The notes beneath the pieces are model-generated. The model made no database searches and was not told where the DNA came from. It saw nothing but the letters and a program-made list of their open reading frames with translations. Shown piece after piece: positions 626-7,329 of a stretch of DNA of 32,000 bases. Each line of letters opens with the position of its first letter. Position 1 is the first letter of the stretch. A program made the translations under genes and the position numbers. The stretch is from Geotalea uraniireducens Rf4 (GTDB taxonomy: Bacteria; Desulfobacterota; Desulfuromonadia; Geobacterales; Geobacteraceae), in the NCBI RefSeq assembly GCF_000016745.1, contig NC_009483.1, positions 390,001 through 422,000 on the forward strand, given 5' to 3'.

Positions 626-1159
626 CTATGCCTTATGTGCCAGGGTGGCGGAGAACCTGCACGTCCTGTTGCCGGTCGTCCAGCAATCGATCTCTTTGAC
701 TGATAATTCCTTGCCGGTATAGGTGTTCAATATTCCGGCCAGGAAGCCTTCGTCATAGCCGCAGAACGTCTCTGCACTCTCTGGTAATCCCGAACAATCG
801 AGGTCCTCCGAGACTGTAAGCACAAGTTCCAGCTTCTCCAGGTCGGCTTTTTCGATACGCAGGATACCGATATTGAGTTCCCTGAGCTTTTCCTGGAGGT
901 TGGCGATAAAGCCGTTAAAGTCGAGGGTTCTGTCCAGGAGATTGTTACAGAACTCGGTTCCTGCCAGTCTGCCGGCTTCGCGCAAAATATCGTTCGCCGT
1001 TTCCACGTTGTAGCGGGCAATCAGTACATCCCGCAACGTATACTGCATCAGGCGATAGACGGCGATGTCGGTGGTGTGTCCGAGATTCGGGCGGCCCAGA
1101 TCTATGTTGCCGAGGTCTTTCCACTTGAACCTGCAAGCCTGCTGTCCGTTGTTGAGCAT
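626..1159 (-). CDS. V4R (4-vinyl reductase-like) domain protein
   Basis: ORF 626..1171. The C-terminal half (CGYDEGFLAGILNTYTGKELSVKEIDCWTTGNRTCRF) is typical of V4R small-ligand-binding domains. I prefer ATG 1159 (MLNNGQQ...) because GGGAGGG sits 3 nt upstream. ATG 1171 has no Shine-Dalgarno (SD) sequence. Confidence 0.75.
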   Translation of the reverse strand: MLNNGQQACRFKWKDLGNIDLGRPNLGHTTDIAVYRLMQYTLRDVLIARYNVETANDILREAGRLAGTEFCNNLLDRTLDFNGFIANLQEKLRELNIGILRIEKADLEKLELVLTVSEDLDCSGLPESAETFCGYDEGFLAGILNTYTGKELSVKEIDCWTTGNRTCRFSATLAHKA

Positions 1160-1189
1160 GTTCCCTCCCATGGCAGGTTTGTCCGTACA

Positions 1190-2491
1190 TCAATTGTTGC
1201 CCCTGCTGAACGGGCAACGCCGCTTTATAATGTGCTCGCGAATCTCTTCCTCGAACAGCCGCAACAGCCCCTCAACCGGCCCCATGGCGCCTGGCGCCAG
1301 GGCGCAGAAAGCGAGATTGAGGTATTTCACGTGCTCACGGAGGATGTCGATGTCTTCCGTTTCTCCCTTGCCCGCTTCGAGCCTGGCCAGGACATCCACC
1401 ACGAAGGGGAGCCCTTCGCGACAGGGGGTGCACCAGCCGCACGACTCGCGGGCGTAGAATTTGACCAGGTTCAGGGTTGCGCCGACCAGACAGGTCTCTT
1501 CGTCGAAGACGATGATCCCCCCGGTTCCGAGGCGCGAACCGGCCTTGGCCACGGTGTCGAAGTCCATCGGCACGCCACGGTGCTCTTCCGTGAAGAAGGG
1601 GGTCGACGCTCCGCCCGGGATGCAGGCCTTGAAACGCTTTCCCGGCAGCATGCCGCCGCACGGGCCGTCGATAATGTCGCCAAGGGGCATTCCCAGCGGC
1701 AGTTCCATGCAAACCGTATTCTGCACGTGGCCGCTGATACAGAACAGCTTGGTTCCCGCAGCCTCGGGGATTTTTGCCAGCCCTTTGAACCAGGCCGGGC
1801 CGTTGGCAATGATGTACGGGATGTTGGCAAGAGTTTCCACGTTGTTCACTACCGTCGGTCCTCCCCAAAGTCCTTTGACCGCCGGGAAGGGGGGTTTGGA
1901 GCGGGGATTGGCCCGCTTTCCCTCCAATGCATTCATGAGGGCCGTCTCTTCGCCGCAGATGTAGCGGCCGGCCGAGACGTGCAGATCGATGTCGCAGGAA
2001 AAGCCGCTGCCGAGAATGTTGTCGCCGATTAACCCGGCCCCCTTCGCCTCGGCGATGGCCCGCCGGACGTTTCCTGCCGCCGTCTCATAGCCGCGCCGGA
2101 TGAAGATGAAGGCGTGGCTGACGCCGATGGCGTAGCAGGCGAGGATTATCCCCTCCACCAGCGACCAGGGGTTCGCCTCCAGAAGGACCCGGTCCTTGTA
2201 AGTCCCCGGTTCCATCTCGTCGCAGTTGCAGATCAGCCAGCGCGGCCCTGGCAGGTCGCGGGGGACGAAGGACCACTTTTTGCCAGTCGGAAAGCCGGCG
2301 CCGCCGCGACCGCGCAGGTTGGCATCAATCACCAGTTGCTGCACGTCATTGGGCGAGAGCTCCTTGAGCGCCTTTTTCAGGGCGTCAAATCCCCCTTCAC
2401 CGCAATATTCGGTGAAGGTGACCGCCCGGCCGGGCCGGTTATGTTGGAAGAGGACCTGTTCCATGATTACCTGGCGGTAAAGTCCCGGCAT
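1190..2491 (-). CDS. nuoF: NADH-quinone oxidoreductase subunit F (51 kDa, FMN/NADH-binding, 4Fe-4S)
   Basis: 433 aa. Motifs seen: LRGRGGAGFPTGKKWSF, GEETALMNALEG and ESCGWCTPCREG. The start may instead be ATG 2464 (MEQVLFQ...). Confidence 0.9.
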   Translation of the reverse strand: MPGLYRQVIMEQVLFQHNRPGRAVTFTEYCGEGGFDALKKALKELSPNDVQQLVIDANLRGRGGAGFPTGKKWSFVPRDLPGPRWLICNCDEMEPGTYKDRVLLEANPWSLVEGIILACYAIGVSHAFIFIRRGYETAAGNVRRAIAEAKGAGLIGDNILGSGFSCDIDLHVSAGRYICGEETALMNALEGKRANPRSKPPFPAVKGLWGGPTVVNNVETLANIPYIIANGPAWFKGLAKIPEAAGTKLFCISGHVQNTVCMELPLGMPLGDIIDGPCGGMLPGKRFKACIPGGASTPFFTEEHRGVPMDFDTVAKAGSRLGTGGIIVFDEETCLVGATLNLVKFYARESCGWCTPCREGLPFVVDVLARLEAGKGETEDIDILREHVKYLNLAFCALAPGAMGPVEGLLRLFEEEIREHIIKRRCPFSRGNN

Positions 2492-2500
2492 GCCGTGACC

Positions 2501-2839
2501 CTACTCCAGCATCTCCTTTAATACCACGGCGTTGTTGTGCTCCGTATCCCTGGCTGCAAAGAGAAGGGTGATGGTCCCTTTTTTCGCCTCGGCACGGAGC
2601 TTTGCCAGAAGGTCTGCCTTGGCCTGCAATTCTTCCTTGTAGCGGGCCTTGAACTCATCCCACCTGGCAGGGTCGTGTCCGAACCATGTGCGCAACTCCG
2701 TGCTCGGCGCCAGTTCCTTGATCCAGTCATCGATACGTGCGGCTTCCTTTGTCATACCCCGCGGCCAGAGACGGTCTGTCAGCAGCCGCCGGCCGTCGCC
2801 CGGCTCCGGCGGGTCGTACATCCTTTTTATCCTGACCAT
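2501..2839 (-). CDS. DUF488 family protein (YeaO-like)
   Basis: 112 aa. MVRIKRMYDPPEPGDGRRLLTDRLWPRGMTKE...WIKELAPSTELRTWF...LLFAARDTEHNNAVVLKEML aligns along its full length with my memory of E. coli YeaO. Confidence 0.8.
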   Translation of the reverse strand: MVRIKRMYDPPEPGDGRRLLTDRLWPRGMTKEAARIDDWIKELAPSTELRTWFGHDPARWDEFKARYKEELQAKADLLAKLRAEAKKGTITLLFAARDTEHNNAVVLKEMLE

Positions 2840-2864
2840 ACCCTGCTCCAGCGAAGAGAGTCAA

Positions 2865-2886
2865 GGGGGCAGCCCATGCCGCCCCC
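2865..2886 (-). terminator. GC-rich hairpin after the cytochrome c stop (weak terminator or attenuator candidate)
   Basis: The minus-strand RNA reads GGGGGCGGCAUGGGCUGCCCCC, followed by UUGACUCUCUUC. The stem is 6+2 bp with one mismatch. The U-tract is poor. Confidence 0.3.
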
Positions 2887-2895
2887 GTTTGCGAT

Positions 2896-3228
2896 CTACT
2901 TGAACGTCTTCAGGATGTAATTGGCGATCGCCTTTGCTTCCTTGTCGGAGATGGTCTTCTTGTCGAACTTGTTCATCCCCGGGCCAGGATTGCGCATCTT
3001 GGCGATGATGTCCCTGGCGGTCTTTACGCCGTTGGCTTCCCGTTCCTTCTTGTGCAGGGGCTTGGCCGGGTTGATGATGTTGCCTCCGTTTGCGTGGCAG
3101 GCAGTGCAGTGCTCTTCGAATTCCTTTTTGCCGTCGATTTTCTCCCCCTTCTTGGTGTCCGCGAAACAGGCGGTGGAGAATGCTGCCAGGGCGAAAAGGG
3201 AAAAGGCAGCTATCCGGGCTTTTTTCAT
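2896..3228 (-). CDS. Periplasmic mono-haem class I c-type cytochrome
   Basis: Single CxxCH (CTACH), a signal peptide (MKKARIAAFSLFALAAFSTACFA), and a distal Met candidate (PGPGMNKF). Start set at ATG 3228 because AAGGAGGAAAACAA precedes it. The ORF-track start at 3258 has no SD. Confidence 0.85.
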   Translation of the reverse strand: MKKARIAAFSLFALAAFSTACFADTKKGEKIDGKKEFEEHCTACHANGGNIINPAKPLHKKEREANGVKTARDIIAKMRNPGPGMNKFDKKTISDKEAKAIANYILKTFK

Positions 3229-3298
3229 TTGTTTTCCTCCTTTTTGGTAGGGGCGCATGGCATGCGCCCTGTTGGAACAGCAATGCAGATTGGGTAAA

Positions 3299-3317
3299 GG
3301 GCGAACGCCGTTCGCCC
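3299..3317 (-). terminator. Stem-loop abutting the nuoE stop codon (partial terminator or stabiliser candidate)
   Basis: The minus-strand RNA reads UAG-GGGCGAAC-GGC-GUUCGCCC-UUUACCCAAU. The stem is 8 bp and GC-rich, the loop is 3 nt, and the U run is short. nuoF lies downstream, so termination cannot be complete. Confidence 0.35.
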
Positions 3318-3791
3318 CTACAGTGTCTTTTTCTCCTGCGCCAGAATCTCTTCCAGCTTCTCTGCCGTCAGCCGGCCATAGAGGGTGTCACCGATCATCA
3401 TGGCCGGCCCATCGCCGCAGTTCCCCAGGCAGCAGCAGGGGAGCAGGGTGAACATTCCGTCTTTGGTGGTCTCTCCAGGCTCGATACCGAGGTGCCGGGC
3501 AAGCTGAGCCATCATGTGTTCCCCCCCGACCGCCCAGCAGGAGATGGAGTCGCAGGCATGGATAACCCGCCTCCCCACAGGTCTGCGGTAAATCATCTCG
3601 TAGAAGGTGGCAAGCTCTTCAACCTGGAGGGTTGAGAGACCCAGCAATGCAGCGGCTTCCTCAACCGCCTCATCGGTCAGCCAGCCGTAATGCCTTTGCA
3701 GCTCCTTCATCACATCCACCGCCGCTTCGCGGGAGGTGACGGCTGCTGCGATGCGGGTTCGCAATTCTTGTCGCAGATCGTCAGTCAGCAT
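3318..3791 (-). CDS. nuoE: NADH-quinone oxidoreductase subunit E (24 kDa, 2Fe-2S)
   Basis: Conserved NuoE core: ...LQRHYGWLTDEAV...ATFYEMIYRRPVGRRVIHACDSISCW...LLPCCCLGNCGDGPAMMIGD. The true start is taken as ATG 3791 (MLTDDLRQEL). The 40 aa the ORF caller adds upstream are translation of the heptamer repeat. Confidence 0.88.
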   Translation of the reverse strand: MLTDDLRQELRTRIAAAVTSREAAVDVMKELQRHYGWLTDEAVEEAAALLGLSTLQVEELATFYEMIYRRPVGRRVIHACDSISCWAVGGEHMMAQLARHLGIEPGETTKDGMFTLLPCCCLGNCGDGPAMMIGDTLYGRLTAEKLEEILAQEKKTL

Positions 3792-3800
3792 TTGATTCTC

Positions 3801-3899
3801 GTTCGAAGTTTGAAGTTCGAAGTTTGAAGTTCGATGTTCGAAGTTCGAAGTTCGAAGTTCGAAGTAATAACATCGAACCTCGAACTTAGAACATTGAAC
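3801..3899 (-). repeat. Inverted array of GTTCGAA heptamers (9 forward units, AT loop, 4 inverted units) filling the nuoBCD-nuoE spacer
   Basis: Read directly. Positions 3801-3863 are gttcgaa gtttgaa gttcgaa gtttgaa gttcgat followed by gttcgaa x4. The loop is gtaataac (3864-3871). Positions 3872-3899 are atcgaac ctcgaac ttagaac attgaac. Confidence 0.9.
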
Positions 3900-3907
3900 T
3901 TGCGTTT

Positions 3908-6771
<2,864 letters not shown>

Positions 6772-6813
6772 GGTGGCCTTGTAACAATAGTGTTTGAATG
6801 GGAAAGCATTTCA

Positions 6814-6841
6814 ATGGTAGCGCAATAACCGCGCATGTCAA
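6814..6841 (-). promoter_or_regulatory. Sigma70-like promoter candidate for the nuoA operon
   Basis: The minus strand reads TTGACA-N16-TACCAT, about 45 nt upstream of the nuoA ATG. Confidence 0.4.
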
Positions 6842-6876
6842 CGGCTCGGACGGGTTTCACGGCGCTAAAACAGAGT

Positions 6877-7329
6877 TCAGAGCGCGTTTTGTCTGAACCA
6901 GGCGAGAACGGCCCGTTTTTCCTGCGCCCCGCTCAGTGTGGCCAGCACTGTTCCCTTCTTCAGGATGAGCAGGGCCGGGATGCTGCGGATGCCAAACCTG
7001 TTTGACAGAAGGGGGTTTTCCTCGGTATTGACCTGTACGACTGCTGCCTTGCCGGCAAGCTCTCTGGCAATTTCACGCACCGCCGGTGCGAAGTTTCGGC
7101 AGTGCGGTCACCAGGGAGCCCAGAACTCGGCGAGAACCGGGCCCGGGTAGCGGGAAACGAAGGAATCGAAGCTTCTGTCGGTCAGTTCTACCGGCTGAAG
7201 GTAAAGAGGGGGGAGCGATGCACGGCAATTGCCGCATTTGCCCGATTGGCCTTCTTTGGTGGAGGGTATGCGGTTGGCTGCGCCGCAGGCGGGGCAGCCA
7301 ACCAGATAGGTGGAAGCGGCTTCGTTCAT
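6877..7329 (-). CDS. trxC: Thioredoxin 2 (TrxC-like, N-terminal Zn-finger) with an in-frame TGA at the first active-site Cys. Candidate selenoprotein (U-P-H-C); alternatively a nonsense pseudogene.
   Basis: ORFs 7108..7329 and 6877..7080 share one frame. They are separated by TGA (7110-7108) plus 9 sense codons. The joined product reads ...CPACGAANRIP...CGNC...VLAEFWAPW-U-PHCRNFAPAVREIA...VNTEENPLLSNRFGIRSIPALLILKKG... and matches E. coli Trx2 (FWAPWCGPCRNFAP...RFGIRSIP). GGAGG lies 7 nt before ATG 7329. Confidence 0.65.
7076..7106 (-). promoter_or_regulatory. Candidate bacterial SECIS stem-loop immediately 3' of the in-frame UGA
   Basis: The mRNA reads UGA-C-CGCACUGCCG-AAACUUCGCAC-CGGCGGUGCG. 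The stem is 10 bp (9 Watson-Crick plus 1 G-U), starts 1 nt after the UGA, and closes an 11-nt loop. The loop lacks the G usually seen at its 5' side, so this needs a proper SECIS model. Confidence 0.45.

What the first reader, a model, noticed from the sequence alone, without database searches (positions are those of the whole stretch)
3792..3907. Hairpin of inverted GTTCGAA heptamer arrays fills the nuoBCD-nuoE spacer and abuts the nuoE start codon
- Positions 3801-3863 are nine head-to-tail heptamers (gttcgaa / gtttgaa / gttcgat variants).
- An AT loop (gtaataac) follows, then four heptamers in the opposite orientation (atcgaac ctcgaac ttagaac attgaac, 3872-3899).
- On the polycistronic minus-strand mRNA the four-unit arm can pair with four units of the nine-unit arm. 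By hand I count about 24 of 29 positions, including G-U pairs.
- TTCGAA is itself a palindrome, so many slipped registers are possible.
- The element occupies nearly the whole 116-nt gap between the nuoBCD stop (3908) and the nuoE ATG (3791).
- Its last unit ends 9 nt before the ATG, where an SD should be. Only GAGAA is there.
- All frames stay open through it. This is why the ORF caller adds a spurious 40-aa periodic extension (FELRTSNFEHRTSNFELQTSN) to NuoE.
- I do not know of a described function for such an element inside a complex I operon. Candidate roles are control of translational coupling or stoichiometry, an RNase processing or stability signal, or a protein-binding array.
Basis: partly seen in the sequence, partly recalled or inferred. 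Interest (0 to 1): 0.75.

Follow-up and report, generated by a model that had tools for sequence, protein, structure and literature searches.

The report
Heptamer-repeat hairpins between complex I genes
The spacer between two respiratory complex I genes of a Geobacter-type bacterium holds a real, non-coding hairpin made of 7-base repeats; it is one copy of a slippage-prone repeat class already catalogued in Geobacter, and its function has never been tested.

Summary
Window 3792-3907 holds nine GTTCGAA-type heptamers, a 4-nt loop and four inverted units. The minus-strand RNA folds at -41.6 kcal/mol (z = -4.9 against shuffles). Two independent assemblies reproduce it base for base.

It is not unique. 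A second element of the same build lies at 6297-6366 between nuoA and nuoBCD.

The organism is a Geobacteraceae member. Its closest relatives carry the same architecture at both junctions. There the start-proximal arm changes by whole units (9 vs 5 vs 6; 5 vs 9), while the distal arm aligns unit by unit.

The 40-aa NuoE extension is not coding. Homologues start at the position of ATG 3791.

There is no U-tract, so it is not an intrinsic terminator. No Rfam family matches.

Similar hairpins sit in unrelated operons of another Geobacteraceae genome. Paired arrays of five heptamers (MTYCTGA) between co-directional genes were listed in G. metallireducens in 2009 as untested "global regulator sites".

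Most likely it is a slippage-prone intercistronic repeat hairpin. I infer that it affects translation initiation or coupling and segmental mRNA stability. A neutral repeat is a strong rival.

One unexplained point remains: paired arrays always run G-type arm first, then C-type arm (16:0).

The parts
3792..3907 (-). Element 1: the whole 116-nt nuoBCD-nuoE spacer (inverted heptamer-array hairpin plus ribosome-binding region).
   Evidence: Identical in independent assemblies L204 and L205.
3869..3899 (-). Element 1, 5' arm on the mRNA: GUUCAAU GUUCUAA GUUCGAG GUUCGAU GUU. Four 'G-type' units, each different.
   Evidence: Aligns unit by unit with L123 and L125.
3865..3868 (-). Element 1 loop (AUUA on the mRNA).
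   Evidence: Sequence. In the MFE structure the unpaired apical loop is 9 nt, so it also takes in a few flanking bases.
3801..3864 (-). Element 1, 3' arm on the mRNA: nine 'C-type' units (CUUCGAA x4, CAUCGAA, CUUCAAA, CUUCGAA, CUUCAAA, CUUCGAAC). About four units pair with the 5' arm. The other five lie next to the ribosome-binding site.
   Evidence: Copy number is 9 here, 5 in L123 and 6 in L125.
3792..3800 (-). gagaaucaa: a weak Shine-Dalgarno-like GAG and the spacing to the nuoE AUG.
   Evidence: Relatives have GAAC-gagcauuu-AUG or GAAC-gggauugu-AUG.
3318..3791 (-). nuoE (157 aa), true start at ATG 3791.
   Evidence: Pfam PF01257, homologues, exact product called on L204 and L205.
3908..6289 (-). 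Fused nuoBCD (793 aa from ATG 6289; stop TGA 3910-3908).
   Evidence: Pfam PF01058 + PF00329 + PF00346. Start by alignment with L123. The L121 homologue is 794 aa.
6336..6366 (-). Element 2, 5' arm: GUUCGAC GUUCAAA GUUCGAG GUUCGAA GUU. It lies inside the non-conserved C-terminal tail of nuoA (...[15 protein letters not shown]).
   Evidence: 100% identical in L123.
6331..6335 (-). Approximate apical loop of element 2. The nuoA stop codon UAA (6336-6334) sits at the end of the 5' arm and runs into this loop.
6297..6330 (-). Element 2, 3' arm: CC GAAC (CUCGAAC)x4, ending 7 nt before the nuoBCD AUG (ggauugu AUG).
   Evidence: L123 has four more units at this place, a 28-nt indel.
6334..6771 (-). 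nuoA (145 aa as read through the repeat arm).
   Evidence: Pfam PF00507, residues 34-130.
6814..6841 (-). Sigma-70-like promoter match TTGACA-16-TACCAT upstream of nuoA. It supports reading nuoA-nuoBCD-nuoE as one transcript.
   Evidence: a consensus match only.

Best explanation
**What it is (well supported).** The element is non-coding and intercistronic. It consists of two arrays of a 7-nt unit (a TTCGAA core plus one spacer base) in inverted orientation. It belongs to a lineage-wide class of heptanucleotide simple-sequence-repeat hairpins in Geobacteraceae.
- The arm next to the downstream start codon is a near-perfect tandem array. It grows and shrinks by whole units through replication slippage, and its units are homogenised.
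- The distal arm is degenerate and evolves like ordinary sequence.

**How it most likely works (inferred).** On the polycistronic nuo mRNA the arms form a stem of about 26-30 bp with no U-tract.
- The stem does not terminate transcription.
- (i) It breaks direct stop-start coupling.
- (ii) It leaves a G-poor single-stranded repeat tail and a weak GAG/GGA Shine-Dalgarno directly upstream of the AUG, where a 30S subunit could load.
- (iii) It provides a double-stranded segment that could block 3' exonucleases or be cut by RNase III, so that cistron segments get different stabilities.
- In element 2 the 5' arm is translated as the tail of nuoA and the stop codon lies in the loop. A ribosome finishing nuoA must therefore melt the stem and free the nuoBCD start region. 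That would couple the two genes.
- Changes in copy number would tune these effects.
For: **Shown**
- Arrays and hairpin statistics.
- Second copy in the same operon.
- Non-coding.
- No terminator-like site at either hairpin. No Rfam family.
- Relatives with 90% and 78% NuoE identity carry the same architecture at the same junctions, with hairpin z-scores of -5.2 to -6.3.
- Between the window and L123 the flanks are 90-97% identical, and the only large change is a 28-nt, four-unit indel in the start-proximal arm.
- Element 1 has 9, 5 and 6 units in three genomes, with homogenised unit types, while the distal arm aligns unit by unit.
- In the nuo loci the arrays end 7-9 nt before the AUG, followed by GAG, GGA or GGG. 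L025 element 3 ends 16 nt before its AUG.
- In the oriented cases I could score (counted by eye) the start-proximal arm is never shorter than the distal arm.
- Similar hairpins lie after pyrB, upstream of a PyrR-like gene, and between an MFS transporter gene and an MCP gene in another Geobacteraceae genome.
- Hairpins of inverted heptamer arrays with unrelated units sit in nuo loci of other relatives (L129 before an AUG, L201, L139).
- Across 120 loci from many phyla, arrays lie just upstream of an ORF start 35 times when read as (CTTCGAA)n and 13 times when read as (GTTCGAA)n.

**Literature**
- G. metallireducens has eight pairs of five tandem heptanucleotides (MTYCTGA) between adjacent genes such as moaA/mosC, cbiG/cobQ and proB/proA: PMC2700814.
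- TAACTGA heptamer repeats lie directly upstream of start codons in Beggiatoaceae: PMC4679880.
Against: - No expression data exist, so every functional step is inference.
- Many relatives have only 3-19 nt at this junction. The element is therefore dispensable for complex I.
- L143 keeps the direct array but has no hairpin (z = +0.8).
- The same spacer in other relatives holds unrelated hairpin repeats or small ORFs. That fits a permissive hot spot as well as it fits selection.
- The antisense RNA usually folds more stably than the sense RNA (15 G.U pairs in sense against 34 in antisense). There is thus no sense-strand-specific signature of RNA selection.
- Pairing rests on the shared GTTC/GAAC core. 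I saw no arm-specific compensatory changes, so covariation cannot be used as evidence.
- The predicted unpaired probability of the SD region is only about 0.3.
- Composition-matched control heptamers are about as common as GTTCGAR in viral contigs (24 vs 16, 13 and 75). The unit itself is therefore not special.
Confidence: 0.5

Rival explanations
1. Neutral or selfish repeat. The arrays are by-products of replication slippage, plus intrastrand template switching that keeps the arms complementary. They accumulate in intercistronic spacers because those tolerate insertions, and they have no adaptive role in nuo expression.
For: - Whole-unit copy-number changes between near-identical relatives.
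- Spacer length ranges from 3 to 570 nt among relatives, and unrelated repeat families occupy the same site.
- Element-bearing loci are patchy on a NuoE tree.
- Period 7 is the commonest TRF period in 415 kb of Geobacteraceae nuo loci.
- Control heptamers are equally frequent in viral contigs.
- There is no sense-specific G.U signal.
- According to MacGregor's summary of earlier work, heptanucleotide repeats are the most abundant long SSR class in most prokaryotic genomes (PMC4679880).
Against: - The element is retained at the same two junctions down to 78% NuoE identity, with a constant 7-9 nt distance to the AUG.
- The longer, homogeneous arm is consistently on the start-codon side.
- Orientation relative to downstream ORFs is biased 35:13.
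- The arm order is invariant at 16:0, which slippage alone does not predict.
Confidence: 0.3
2. DNA-level array of protein-binding sites. TTCGAA palindromes every 7 bp (every third unit on the same helical face) recruit a nucleoid-associated or global regulator protein such as IHF or HU. This is what was proposed for the paired heptanucleotide sites of G. metallireducens. Alternatively the arrays relate to a TTCGAA-specific restriction-modification system.
For: - The hypothesis was stated for the analogous class-3 sites (PMC2700814).
- The core is a perfect 6-bp palindrome.
- TTCGAA outside the two elements is mildly under-represented in the window (5 observed against 11.8 expected).
- Most unit variants are CG to TG or CA transitions.
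Against: - No binding protein is known, and IHF/HU consensus sites look different (my own knowledge).
- Hairpins with unrelated units share the same architecture, which argues against one sequence-specific binder.
- The position is tied to start codons rather than to promoters.
- The under-representation rests on 32 kb only.
Confidence: 0.1
3. The repeat is coding. NuoE starts at ATG 3911, overlapping the nuoBCD stop as ATGA, and carries a 40-aa FELRTSN-type N-terminal extension.
For: - The frame is open and there is an ATGA overlap.
- GTTCGAA has no stop codon in any of the six frames.
Against: - The best 120 homologues cover only about 80% of the long ORF, and those I read align from the position of ATG 3791.
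- The Pfam domain begins at residue 55.
- L123 and L125 have a TAA stop with no overlapping ATG, and their spacers differ by 29 and 21 nt, so no common frame or length is kept.
- No gene with the 197-aa product is on record, whereas the 157-aa product is called on two contigs.
Confidence: 0.03
4. Intrinsic terminator or attenuator inside the operon.
For: - A strong hairpin is present.
- Two related hairpins in L025 are followed by U5-U6 runs on the sense strand.
Against: - No U-tract follows either window hairpin on the sense strand, and the terminator scan finds nothing there.
- Genes for essential complex I subunits follow downstream.
Confidence: 0.04

Closest known systems
Class 3 'putative global regulator binding sites' of Geobacter metallireducens (Gmet_I301-I308; Aklujkar et al. 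2009, PMC2700814)
   Same: - Same bacterial family.
- Two arrays of about five tandem heptanucleotides on opposite strands, within about 75-115 bp.
- Mostly between adjacent co-directional genes (moaA/mosC, cbiG/cobQ, proB/proA).
- The purine-rich arm comes first and the pyrimidine-rich arm second on either strand.
- Multicopy, with no tested function.
   Different: - The unit is MTYCTGA, not NTTCGAA, and has no palindromic core.
- No nuo copy is listed, and none of the window's heptamer strings occurs in that paper's supplements.
- The authors read them as DNA sites for IHF/HU-type proteins, not as RNA hairpins.
TAACTGA heptamer direct repeats of marine Beggiatoaceae, cyanobacteria and Bacteroidetes (MacGregor 2015, PMC4679880)
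   Same: - Intergenic tandem heptamers.
- A strong 'forward' orientation directly upstream of start codons.
- Weak or absent canonical ribosome-binding sites nearby.
- Found within operons for essential proteins.
- Lineage-specific proliferation.
- A role in translation was proposed (S1, Csp or CsrA binding) but not tested.
   Different: - Different unit. TAACTGA carries stop codons in the forward orientation.
- Almost always direct repeats (one inverted case in 170), so no hairpin forms.
[quoted passage not shown]
Heptanucleotide long simple-sequence repeats of prokaryotes, including cyanobacterial STRR sequences
   Same: - Period-7 tandem arrays, mostly non-coding, prone to slippage.
- The most abundant long-SSR class in many genomes, as summarised in PMC4679880. 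The STRR comparison rests on my own knowledge.
   Different: - These are defined as direct arrays.
- Inverted pairing, a fixed arm order and a fixed distance to a start codon are not part of their description.
REP/BIME and REPIN elements; Correia (NEMIS) and ERIC elements
   Same: - Multicopy intergenic or intercistronic hairpin-forming repeats.
- When co-transcribed they can stabilise upstream mRNA segments or be cut by RNase III or RNase E (my own knowledge; REP and REPIN reviews PMC3116915, PMC3479197, PMC3184786, seen only as search hits).
- This is the best functional analogy.
   Different: - Those are unique-sequence palindromes or MITEs, not tandem heptamers.
- REPs carry a conserved 5' GTAG and are mobilised by RAYT transposases. 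No such gene is in the window.
- They do not expand or contract by whole units.

Membership tests
Heptanucleotide simple-sequence repeat (long SSR / STRR-like) | Head-to-tail copies of a 7-nt unit, at least 3-4 copies | tested here: met
   9.3 and 4.4 copies in element 1; 4.7 and 4.7 copies in element 2.
Heptanucleotide simple-sequence repeat (long SSR / STRR-like) | Copy number differs by whole units between close relatives (slippage) | tested here: met
   A 28-nt indel in element 2 between the window and L123, with flanks 90-97% identical. Element 1 has 9, 5 and 6 units in three genomes.
Heptanucleotide simple-sequence repeat (long SSR / STRR-like) | Many copies dispersed through the genome | tested here: inconclusive
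   Only 2 copies in 32 kb, both in nuo. Another Geobacteraceae MAG has 3 in 8 kb plus one on a second contig. The complete source genome was not available.
G. metallireducens class 3 paired heptanucleotide sites | Two arrays of about five tandem heptamers on opposite strands within about 100 bp, between adjacent genes | tested here: met
   Element 1 is 4 + 9 units in 116 nt. Element 2 is 4 + 5 units in about 70 nt. Both lie between co-directional genes.
G. metallireducens class 3 paired heptanucleotide sites | Unit consensus MTYCTGA (the family was defined by BLAST similarity) | tested here: not met
   The units here are GTTCGAN and NTTCGAA. None of the window's heptamer strings is found in the paper's supplements.
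G. metallireducens class 3 paired heptanucleotide sites | Binding of a global regulator (IHF/HU), as hypothesised by the authors | not testable with these tools
   No binding data exist for either set.
REP / REPIN | Unique-sequence imperfect palindrome with a conserved 5' tetranucleotide, associated with a RAYT transposase | tested here: not met
   The arms are tandem heptamers. No Y1 transposase domain appears in any of the 30 window ORFs scanned. The rest of the genome was not seen.
Intrinsic (Rho-independent) terminator | G+C-rich stem-loop followed directly by a U-tract on the transcript | tested here: not met
   No terminator-like site at 3792-3907 or 6297-6366. The hairpins are followed by gagaaucaaAUG and ggauuguAUG.
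Any curated RNA family (Rfam 15) | Covariance-model score at or above the gathering threshold | tested here: not met
   Only sub-threshold matches to plant or animal miRNA-precursor models (35.7 bits against a threshold of 100), which are generic hairpin matches.
Coding tandem repeat (N-terminal extension of NuoE) | Extension conserved in frame in homologues | tested here: not met
   The best 120 homologues cover about 80% of the long ORF, and those I read lack the extension. The spacers of relatives differ by non-multiples of 3.
TAACTGA-type start-codon-proximal heptamer repeats | Direct repeats in one orientation ending a few nt upstream of start codons | tested here: met
   In the nuo loci the array ends 7-9 nt before the AUG. 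The orientation bias is 35:13 over 152 arrays. The unit sequence differs, so this is an analogy and not membership.

The most novel reading that the evidence does not exclude
Heptanucleotide-array hairpins form a widespread, polarity-constrained class of cis-elements found in at least 7 phyla. The G-type (purine-rich) arm is always 5' and the C-type (pyrimidine-rich) arm is always 3'. Surplus 3' units sit directly upstream of a weak Shine-Dalgarno sequence. They would act as slippage-tunable controls of translation initiation and intercistronic mRNA stability, possibly read in 7-nt register by a general RNA-binding protein such as S1 or a cold-shock protein. The two nuo copies would then set how nuoA, nuoBCD and nuoE are coupled.
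Probability: 0.15. Interest if true: 0.7.

Novelty: new variant of a known kind. Interest (0 to 1): 0.42.

Why it matters
**If the element is only a slippage-prone repeat**
- It matters mainly for annotation. It produces false N-terminal extensions (NuoE) and false C-terminal tails (NuoA).
- It breaks short-read contigs. L205 starts inside it.
- It gives a hypervariable marker for typing Geobacter strains.

**If the inferred RNA role is real**
- It would be a simple, evolvable way to tune translation and transcript stability inside a long respiratory operon.
- It would give a first function to the heptanucleotide repeats, which have been reported as the most abundant long-SSR class in most prokaryotic genomes, with no function shown for them in the papers I read.
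- The fixed arm order (16:0) and the orientation bias towards downstream start codons are concrete, testable regularities. I did not find them described in the papers I could search.

Tried and rejected
- **Source contig via NuoF.** Two look-ups failed because the service was busy. The 197-aa ORF is not on record. The 157-aa NuoE found L204 and L205.
- **Rfam.** Only sub-threshold miRNA-precursor hits.
- **Literature search for the repeat string.** One irrelevant plant paper. The PNAS paper on prokaryotic SSRs is not held, so I cite MacGregor's summary of it.
- **G.U asymmetry as a test for sense-strand RNA selection.** Negative. The antisense strand folds better in 8 of 10 elements.
- **RBS accessibility from partition functions.** Uninformative (about 0.3) and dependent on the context chosen.
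- **Is GTTCGAA a special unit?** No. Three composition-matched control heptamers give 16, 13 and 75 viral contigs against 24. The many hits across phyla are therefore likely independent SSRs in part, not one conserved family.
- **Single origin of the nuoE-proximal element.** An NJ tree of 157-aa NuoE shows a patchy distribution and cannot separate loss from regain.
- **A 30-codon uORF starting at the AUG just before the element 1 loop and ending at a UGA overlapping the nuoE start.** Read by hand. Not conserved: in L123 it stops after 5 codons. Rejected as chance.
- **TTCGAA avoidance (restriction-site hypothesis).** 5 observed against 11.8 expected in 32 kb, too little sequence to decide.
- **Promoter inside the array** (TTGAAC resembles a -35 box). 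The scan finds none.
Full report

Yes. On the + strand TRF reports 3801-3865 as 9.3 copies of GTTCGAA (89% matches, score 109). It reports 3869-3899 as 4.4 copies of the reverse-oriented unit. A two-unit pattern with up to 2 mismatches occurs 21 times in the window, against 1.1 expected from shuffles.

The genes run on the minus strand. The nuoBCD stop is TGA 3910-3908 and the nuoE ATG is 3791-3789, so the spacer is 3792-3907, 116 nt. On the mRNA the order is:
- aaacgcaa;
- the 5' arm, GUUCAAU GUUCUAA GUUCGAG GUUCGAU GUU;
- the loop, AUUA;
- the 3' arm, nine CUUCGAA-type units;
- gagaaucaa AUG.

RNA 3780-3915 folds at -41.6 kcal/mol against -25.2 +/- 3.4 for dinucleotide shuffles (z = -4.9; 0 of 200 shuffles do as well). 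The stem is about 30 bp and uses roughly four of the nine 3' units. Because TTCGAA is a palindrome, many registers are possible (19 inverted pairs).

Two independent Logan assemblies that encode the identical 157-aa NuoE (L204 from SRR9436596, L205 from SRR29904084) reproduce the element base for base. L205 begins inside it. It is therefore not an assembly artefact.

**2.

TRF also reports 6297-6329 (GTTCGAG x4.7) and 6336-6368 (x4.7, inverted). This is the nuoA-nuoBCD junction. On the mRNA it reads: GUUCGAC GUUCAAA GUUCGAG GUUCGAA GUU, then aaaugc, then CGAAC (CUCGAAC)x4, then ggauugu AUG. It folds at -41.4 kcal/mol, z = -5.3.

Here the 5' arm lies inside the nuoA reading frame. It encodes a non-conserved tail (...[18 protein letters not shown]), and the UAA stop (6336-6334) sits at the top of the hairpin. 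The Pfam NuoA domain ends at residue 130 of 145.

**3. Gene context and organism**

Pfam identifies these genes:
- nuoA, 6334-6771;
- a fused nuoBCD, 3908-6289;
- nuoE, 3318-3791;
- a small cytochrome c, 2896-3258;
- DUF488, 2501-2839;
- nuoF, 1190-2491;
- a V4R protein, 626-1171.

A sigma-70-like site lies before nuoA. No terminator-like site lies at either hairpin. The named NuoE homologues among the best 120 are nearly all Geobacter or Geobacteraceae, at 70-92% identity. The source is therefore a member of the Geobacteraceae.

**4. Coding or not?**

The long ORF (3318-3911) starts at an ATG that overlaps the nuoBCD TGA, which looks like a coupling signal. Four lines of evidence argue against it being coding.
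- The best 120 homologues cover only about 80% of the long ORF. The 12 I read align from the position of ATG 3791, and three of them carry their own unrelated N-terminal extensions.
- The Pfam domain starts at residue 55.
- Gene callers chose the 157-aa product on L204 and L205, and no 197-aa product is on record.
- The closest relatives have a TAA stop with no overlapping ATG, and spacers of 87 and 95 nt. Neither the frame nor the length is kept.

GTTCGAA has no stop codon in any of its six frames, which explains the open frames.

**5. Comparative evidence**

I fetched 80 metagenomic loci that encode NuoE relatives. The distance from the NuoD C-terminus to the NuoE start ranges from 3 to 570 nt.

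The closest relatives (L123 and L124, 90% NuoE identity) have the same architecture at both junctions.
- Element 1 has 5 + 5 units in 87 nt.
- Element 2 has a 5' arm identical to the window's and a 3' arm four units longer, a 28-nt indel. The flanks are 90-97% identical.

L125 (78%) has 4 + 6 units. A three-way alignment shows that the 5' arm is alignable unit by unit. The 3' arm differs in number (9, 5, 6) and in homogenised unit type (CUUCGAA here, CCUUGAA in the other two).

So the start-proximal arm evolves by slippage with concerted evolution, and the distal arm evolves like ordinary sequence. Hairpin z-scores in these relatives are -5.2 to -6.3.

More distant loci show other states.
- L143 (69%) keeps only a direct array (GAACAUA x6.6) before the AUG and has no hairpin (z = +0.8). 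It has a 2 + 6 version at nuoA-nuoBCD.
- L191 and L164 have degenerate versions.

In the nuo loci the array ends 7-9 nt before the AUG and is followed by GAG, GGA or GGG. In the oriented cases I could score, counted by eye, the start-proximal arm is never shorter than the distal one.

On an NJ tree of NuoE the element-bearing loci are patchy.

**6. The junction is a hot spot, and the architecture is generic**

Other relatives fill the same spacer with unrelated hairpin repeats.
- One group contains GCGACGUAGCG(C/U)UGCUACGUC. It closely resembles the 24-member short-RNA family of G. metallireducens described in PMC2700814.
- Another group is a long inverted repeat, gccacagaggcacagag... .
- Others have a small ORF.

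Hairpins built from inverted heptamer arrays with quite different units also occur in nuo loci:
- L129: GGCUGAG x3 and CCUUAGC x4, then cggauuauuuAUG;
- L201: GAACAGR and CCCUGYA, -63 kcal/mol;
- L139: CGAGGAN and CCUCGUA.

Period 7 is the commonest TRF period in these 415 kb.

**7. Distribution of the GTTCGAR unit**

My back-of-envelope chance expectation is about 2. The hits come from many phyla, and several genomes contribute 2-4 loci each. About ten loci are from Geobacterales. The source genome is not among them.

One Geobacteraceae MAG (L025) has three hairpins of the window's type within 8 kb: after pyrB, upstream of a PyrR-like gene, and between an MFS transporter gene and an MCP gene. 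Two of them are followed by U-runs. Nitrospirota loci share a near-identical GTTCGAG-type hairpin.

As a control, three composition-matched heptamers were about as frequent as GTTCGAR in viral contigs (16, 13 and 75 contigs against 24). The unit is therefore not special. The general phenomenon is the abundance of heptanucleotide SSRs.

**8. Two regularities I cannot explain away**

- (a) Among 152 arrays in those loci, and after removing arrays that may lie inside long ORFs, 35 lie within 30 nt upstream of an ORF start when read as (CTTCGAA)n. Only 13 do when read as (GTTCGAA)n. With ATG starts only the counts are 17 and 6, and the modal distance is 9 nt.
- (b) Where two arrays of opposite type lie within 40 nt of each other, the order is always G-type then C-type. 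That is 16 to 0 once the two window elements are included, and two within-array switches go the same way. The cases come from at least 7 phyla.

This arm order is its own reverse complement, so any transcript has the G-type arm 5'. The duplex is the same in either order, so thermodynamics does not explain it. By my reading, the G. metallireducens class 3 pairs and the L129, L201 and L139 hairpins show the same polarity, purine-rich arm first.

**9. Mechanism**

Shown:
- the element is non-coding;
- it forms a hairpin, is not a terminator and matches no known RNA family;
- it is slippage-prone;
- it keeps its position next to the start codon;
- its two arms are asymmetric.

Inferred:
- On the nuo mRNA the stem separates the cistrons.
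- It leaves a G-poor repeat tail plus a weak SD as the site where a ribosome loads.
- It offers a 26-30 bp duplex that could block 3' exonucleases or be an RNase III substrate, as is known for co-transcribed REP, ERIC and Correia elements (my own knowledge).
- In element 2 the ribosome finishing nuoA must unwind the stem, because the 5' arm is coding and the stop is in the loop. That would expose the nuoBCD start, a classical coupling arrangement.

Against a selected RNA role:
- many relatives do without any element;
- L143 lacks the hairpin;
- antisense folding is usually stronger, with 15 G.U pairs in sense and 34 in antisense;
- pairing relies on the shared GTTC/GAAC core, and I saw no arm-specific compensatory change.

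A neutral or selfish repeat therefore remains a strong rival. A DNA-level protein-binding array, the 2009 proposal, cannot be excluded.

**10. Comparison with what is known**

- The nearest described objects are the eight pairs of five tandem heptanucleotides (MTYCTGA) that lie between adjacent genes in G. metallireducens. They were annotated as putative IHF/HU-type global regulator sites and never tested (PMC2700814). The window's elements share the architecture, size, gene context and polarity, but not the unit sequence. They are not members of that BLAST-defined family.
- The TAACTGA repeats (PMC4679880) share the start-codon-proximal, oriented placement, but they are direct repeats.
- REP and REPIN elements share intercistronic hairpin behaviour, but not the tandem structure or the transposase association.

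**11. Verdict**

The element is real, reproducible and non-coding. It is one of two in this operon. It is a new sequence variant of an already noticed but functionally uncharacterised class of heptanucleotide-repeat hairpins.

Interest is moderate. The element itself is ordinary for a Geobacter genome. The conserved placement, the arm asymmetry and the invariant arm order are new, testable regularities.

Noticed in passing
window 6297-6366: A second inverted heptamer-array hairpin lies in the nuoA-nuoBCD junction. Its 5' arm is read as the last ~10 codons of nuoA, and the nuoA stop codon lies at the hairpin apex.
   Followed up: yes
L001-L120; window 3801-3899 and 6297-6366: When TTCGAA-core arrays of opposite type are adjacent, the order is always G-type arm then C-type arm (16:0, from at least 7 phyla). 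Hairpins with other heptamer units show the same purine-first polarity. Thermodynamics does not explain this.
   Followed up: partly
L129, L151, L182, L138, L148, L167, L198, L126, L150, L155 (about 100-240 nt upstream of the nuoE start): The nuoBCD-nuoE junction of other Geobacteraceae is a hot spot. It holds unrelated long inverted repeats, including a group with the palindrome GCGACGTAGCG(C/T)TGCTACGTC, which closely resembles a 24-member short-RNA family of G. metallireducens.
   Followed up: partly
L140, L166, L195, L203 (upstream of nuoE): Some relatives, including the 92%-identical L203, carry a small ORF between nuoBCD and nuoE. It ends ...HRFLH(R/H)FHMETD* in L140 and L203, and ...HRFLHRFxLESE* in L166 and L195.
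   Followed up: no
window 626-3283 (minus strand): The nuo operon is interrupted by accessory genes. A small cytochrome c (2896-3258) and DUF488 (2501-2839) lie between nuoE and nuoF. A V4R-domain protein (626-1171) follows nuoF. L204 also shows a GGDEF protein downstream.
   Followed up: partly
L025 1016-1074 and 2675-2730 (minus strand): Heptamer hairpins of the same type are followed by U5-U6 runs. One lies after pyrB and one lies upstream of a PyrR-like phosphoribosyltransferase gene. In these copies the hairpin could serve as a terminator or attenuator.
   Followed up: partly
L018, L036, L056, L095, L110: Different Nitrospirota genomes share a near-identical hairpin, GTTCGAGGTTCGAAGTTCGAGGT-TTTYGG-AACTTCGAACCCAGAACTTCGAAC. 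It looks like a dispersed REP-like family built on the same unit.
   Followed up: no
L071 2079-2160: An array of (GTTCGAG)4 runs straight into (GTTTTAG)7 in the same register. This shows how one heptamer array can turn into another.
   Followed up: no
window, whole: TTCGAA occurs 5 times outside the two elements, against 11.8 expected from a second-order Markov model. Most unit variants inside the arrays are CG to TG or CA transitions. Both hints would fit cytosine methylation or restriction avoidance at this palindrome, but the sample is too small.
   Followed up: partly
window 6814-6841 (minus strand): The only sigma-70-like promoter match in 3000-7200 (TTGACA-16-TACCAT) lies about 40 nt upstream of the nuoA start.
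   Followed up: no
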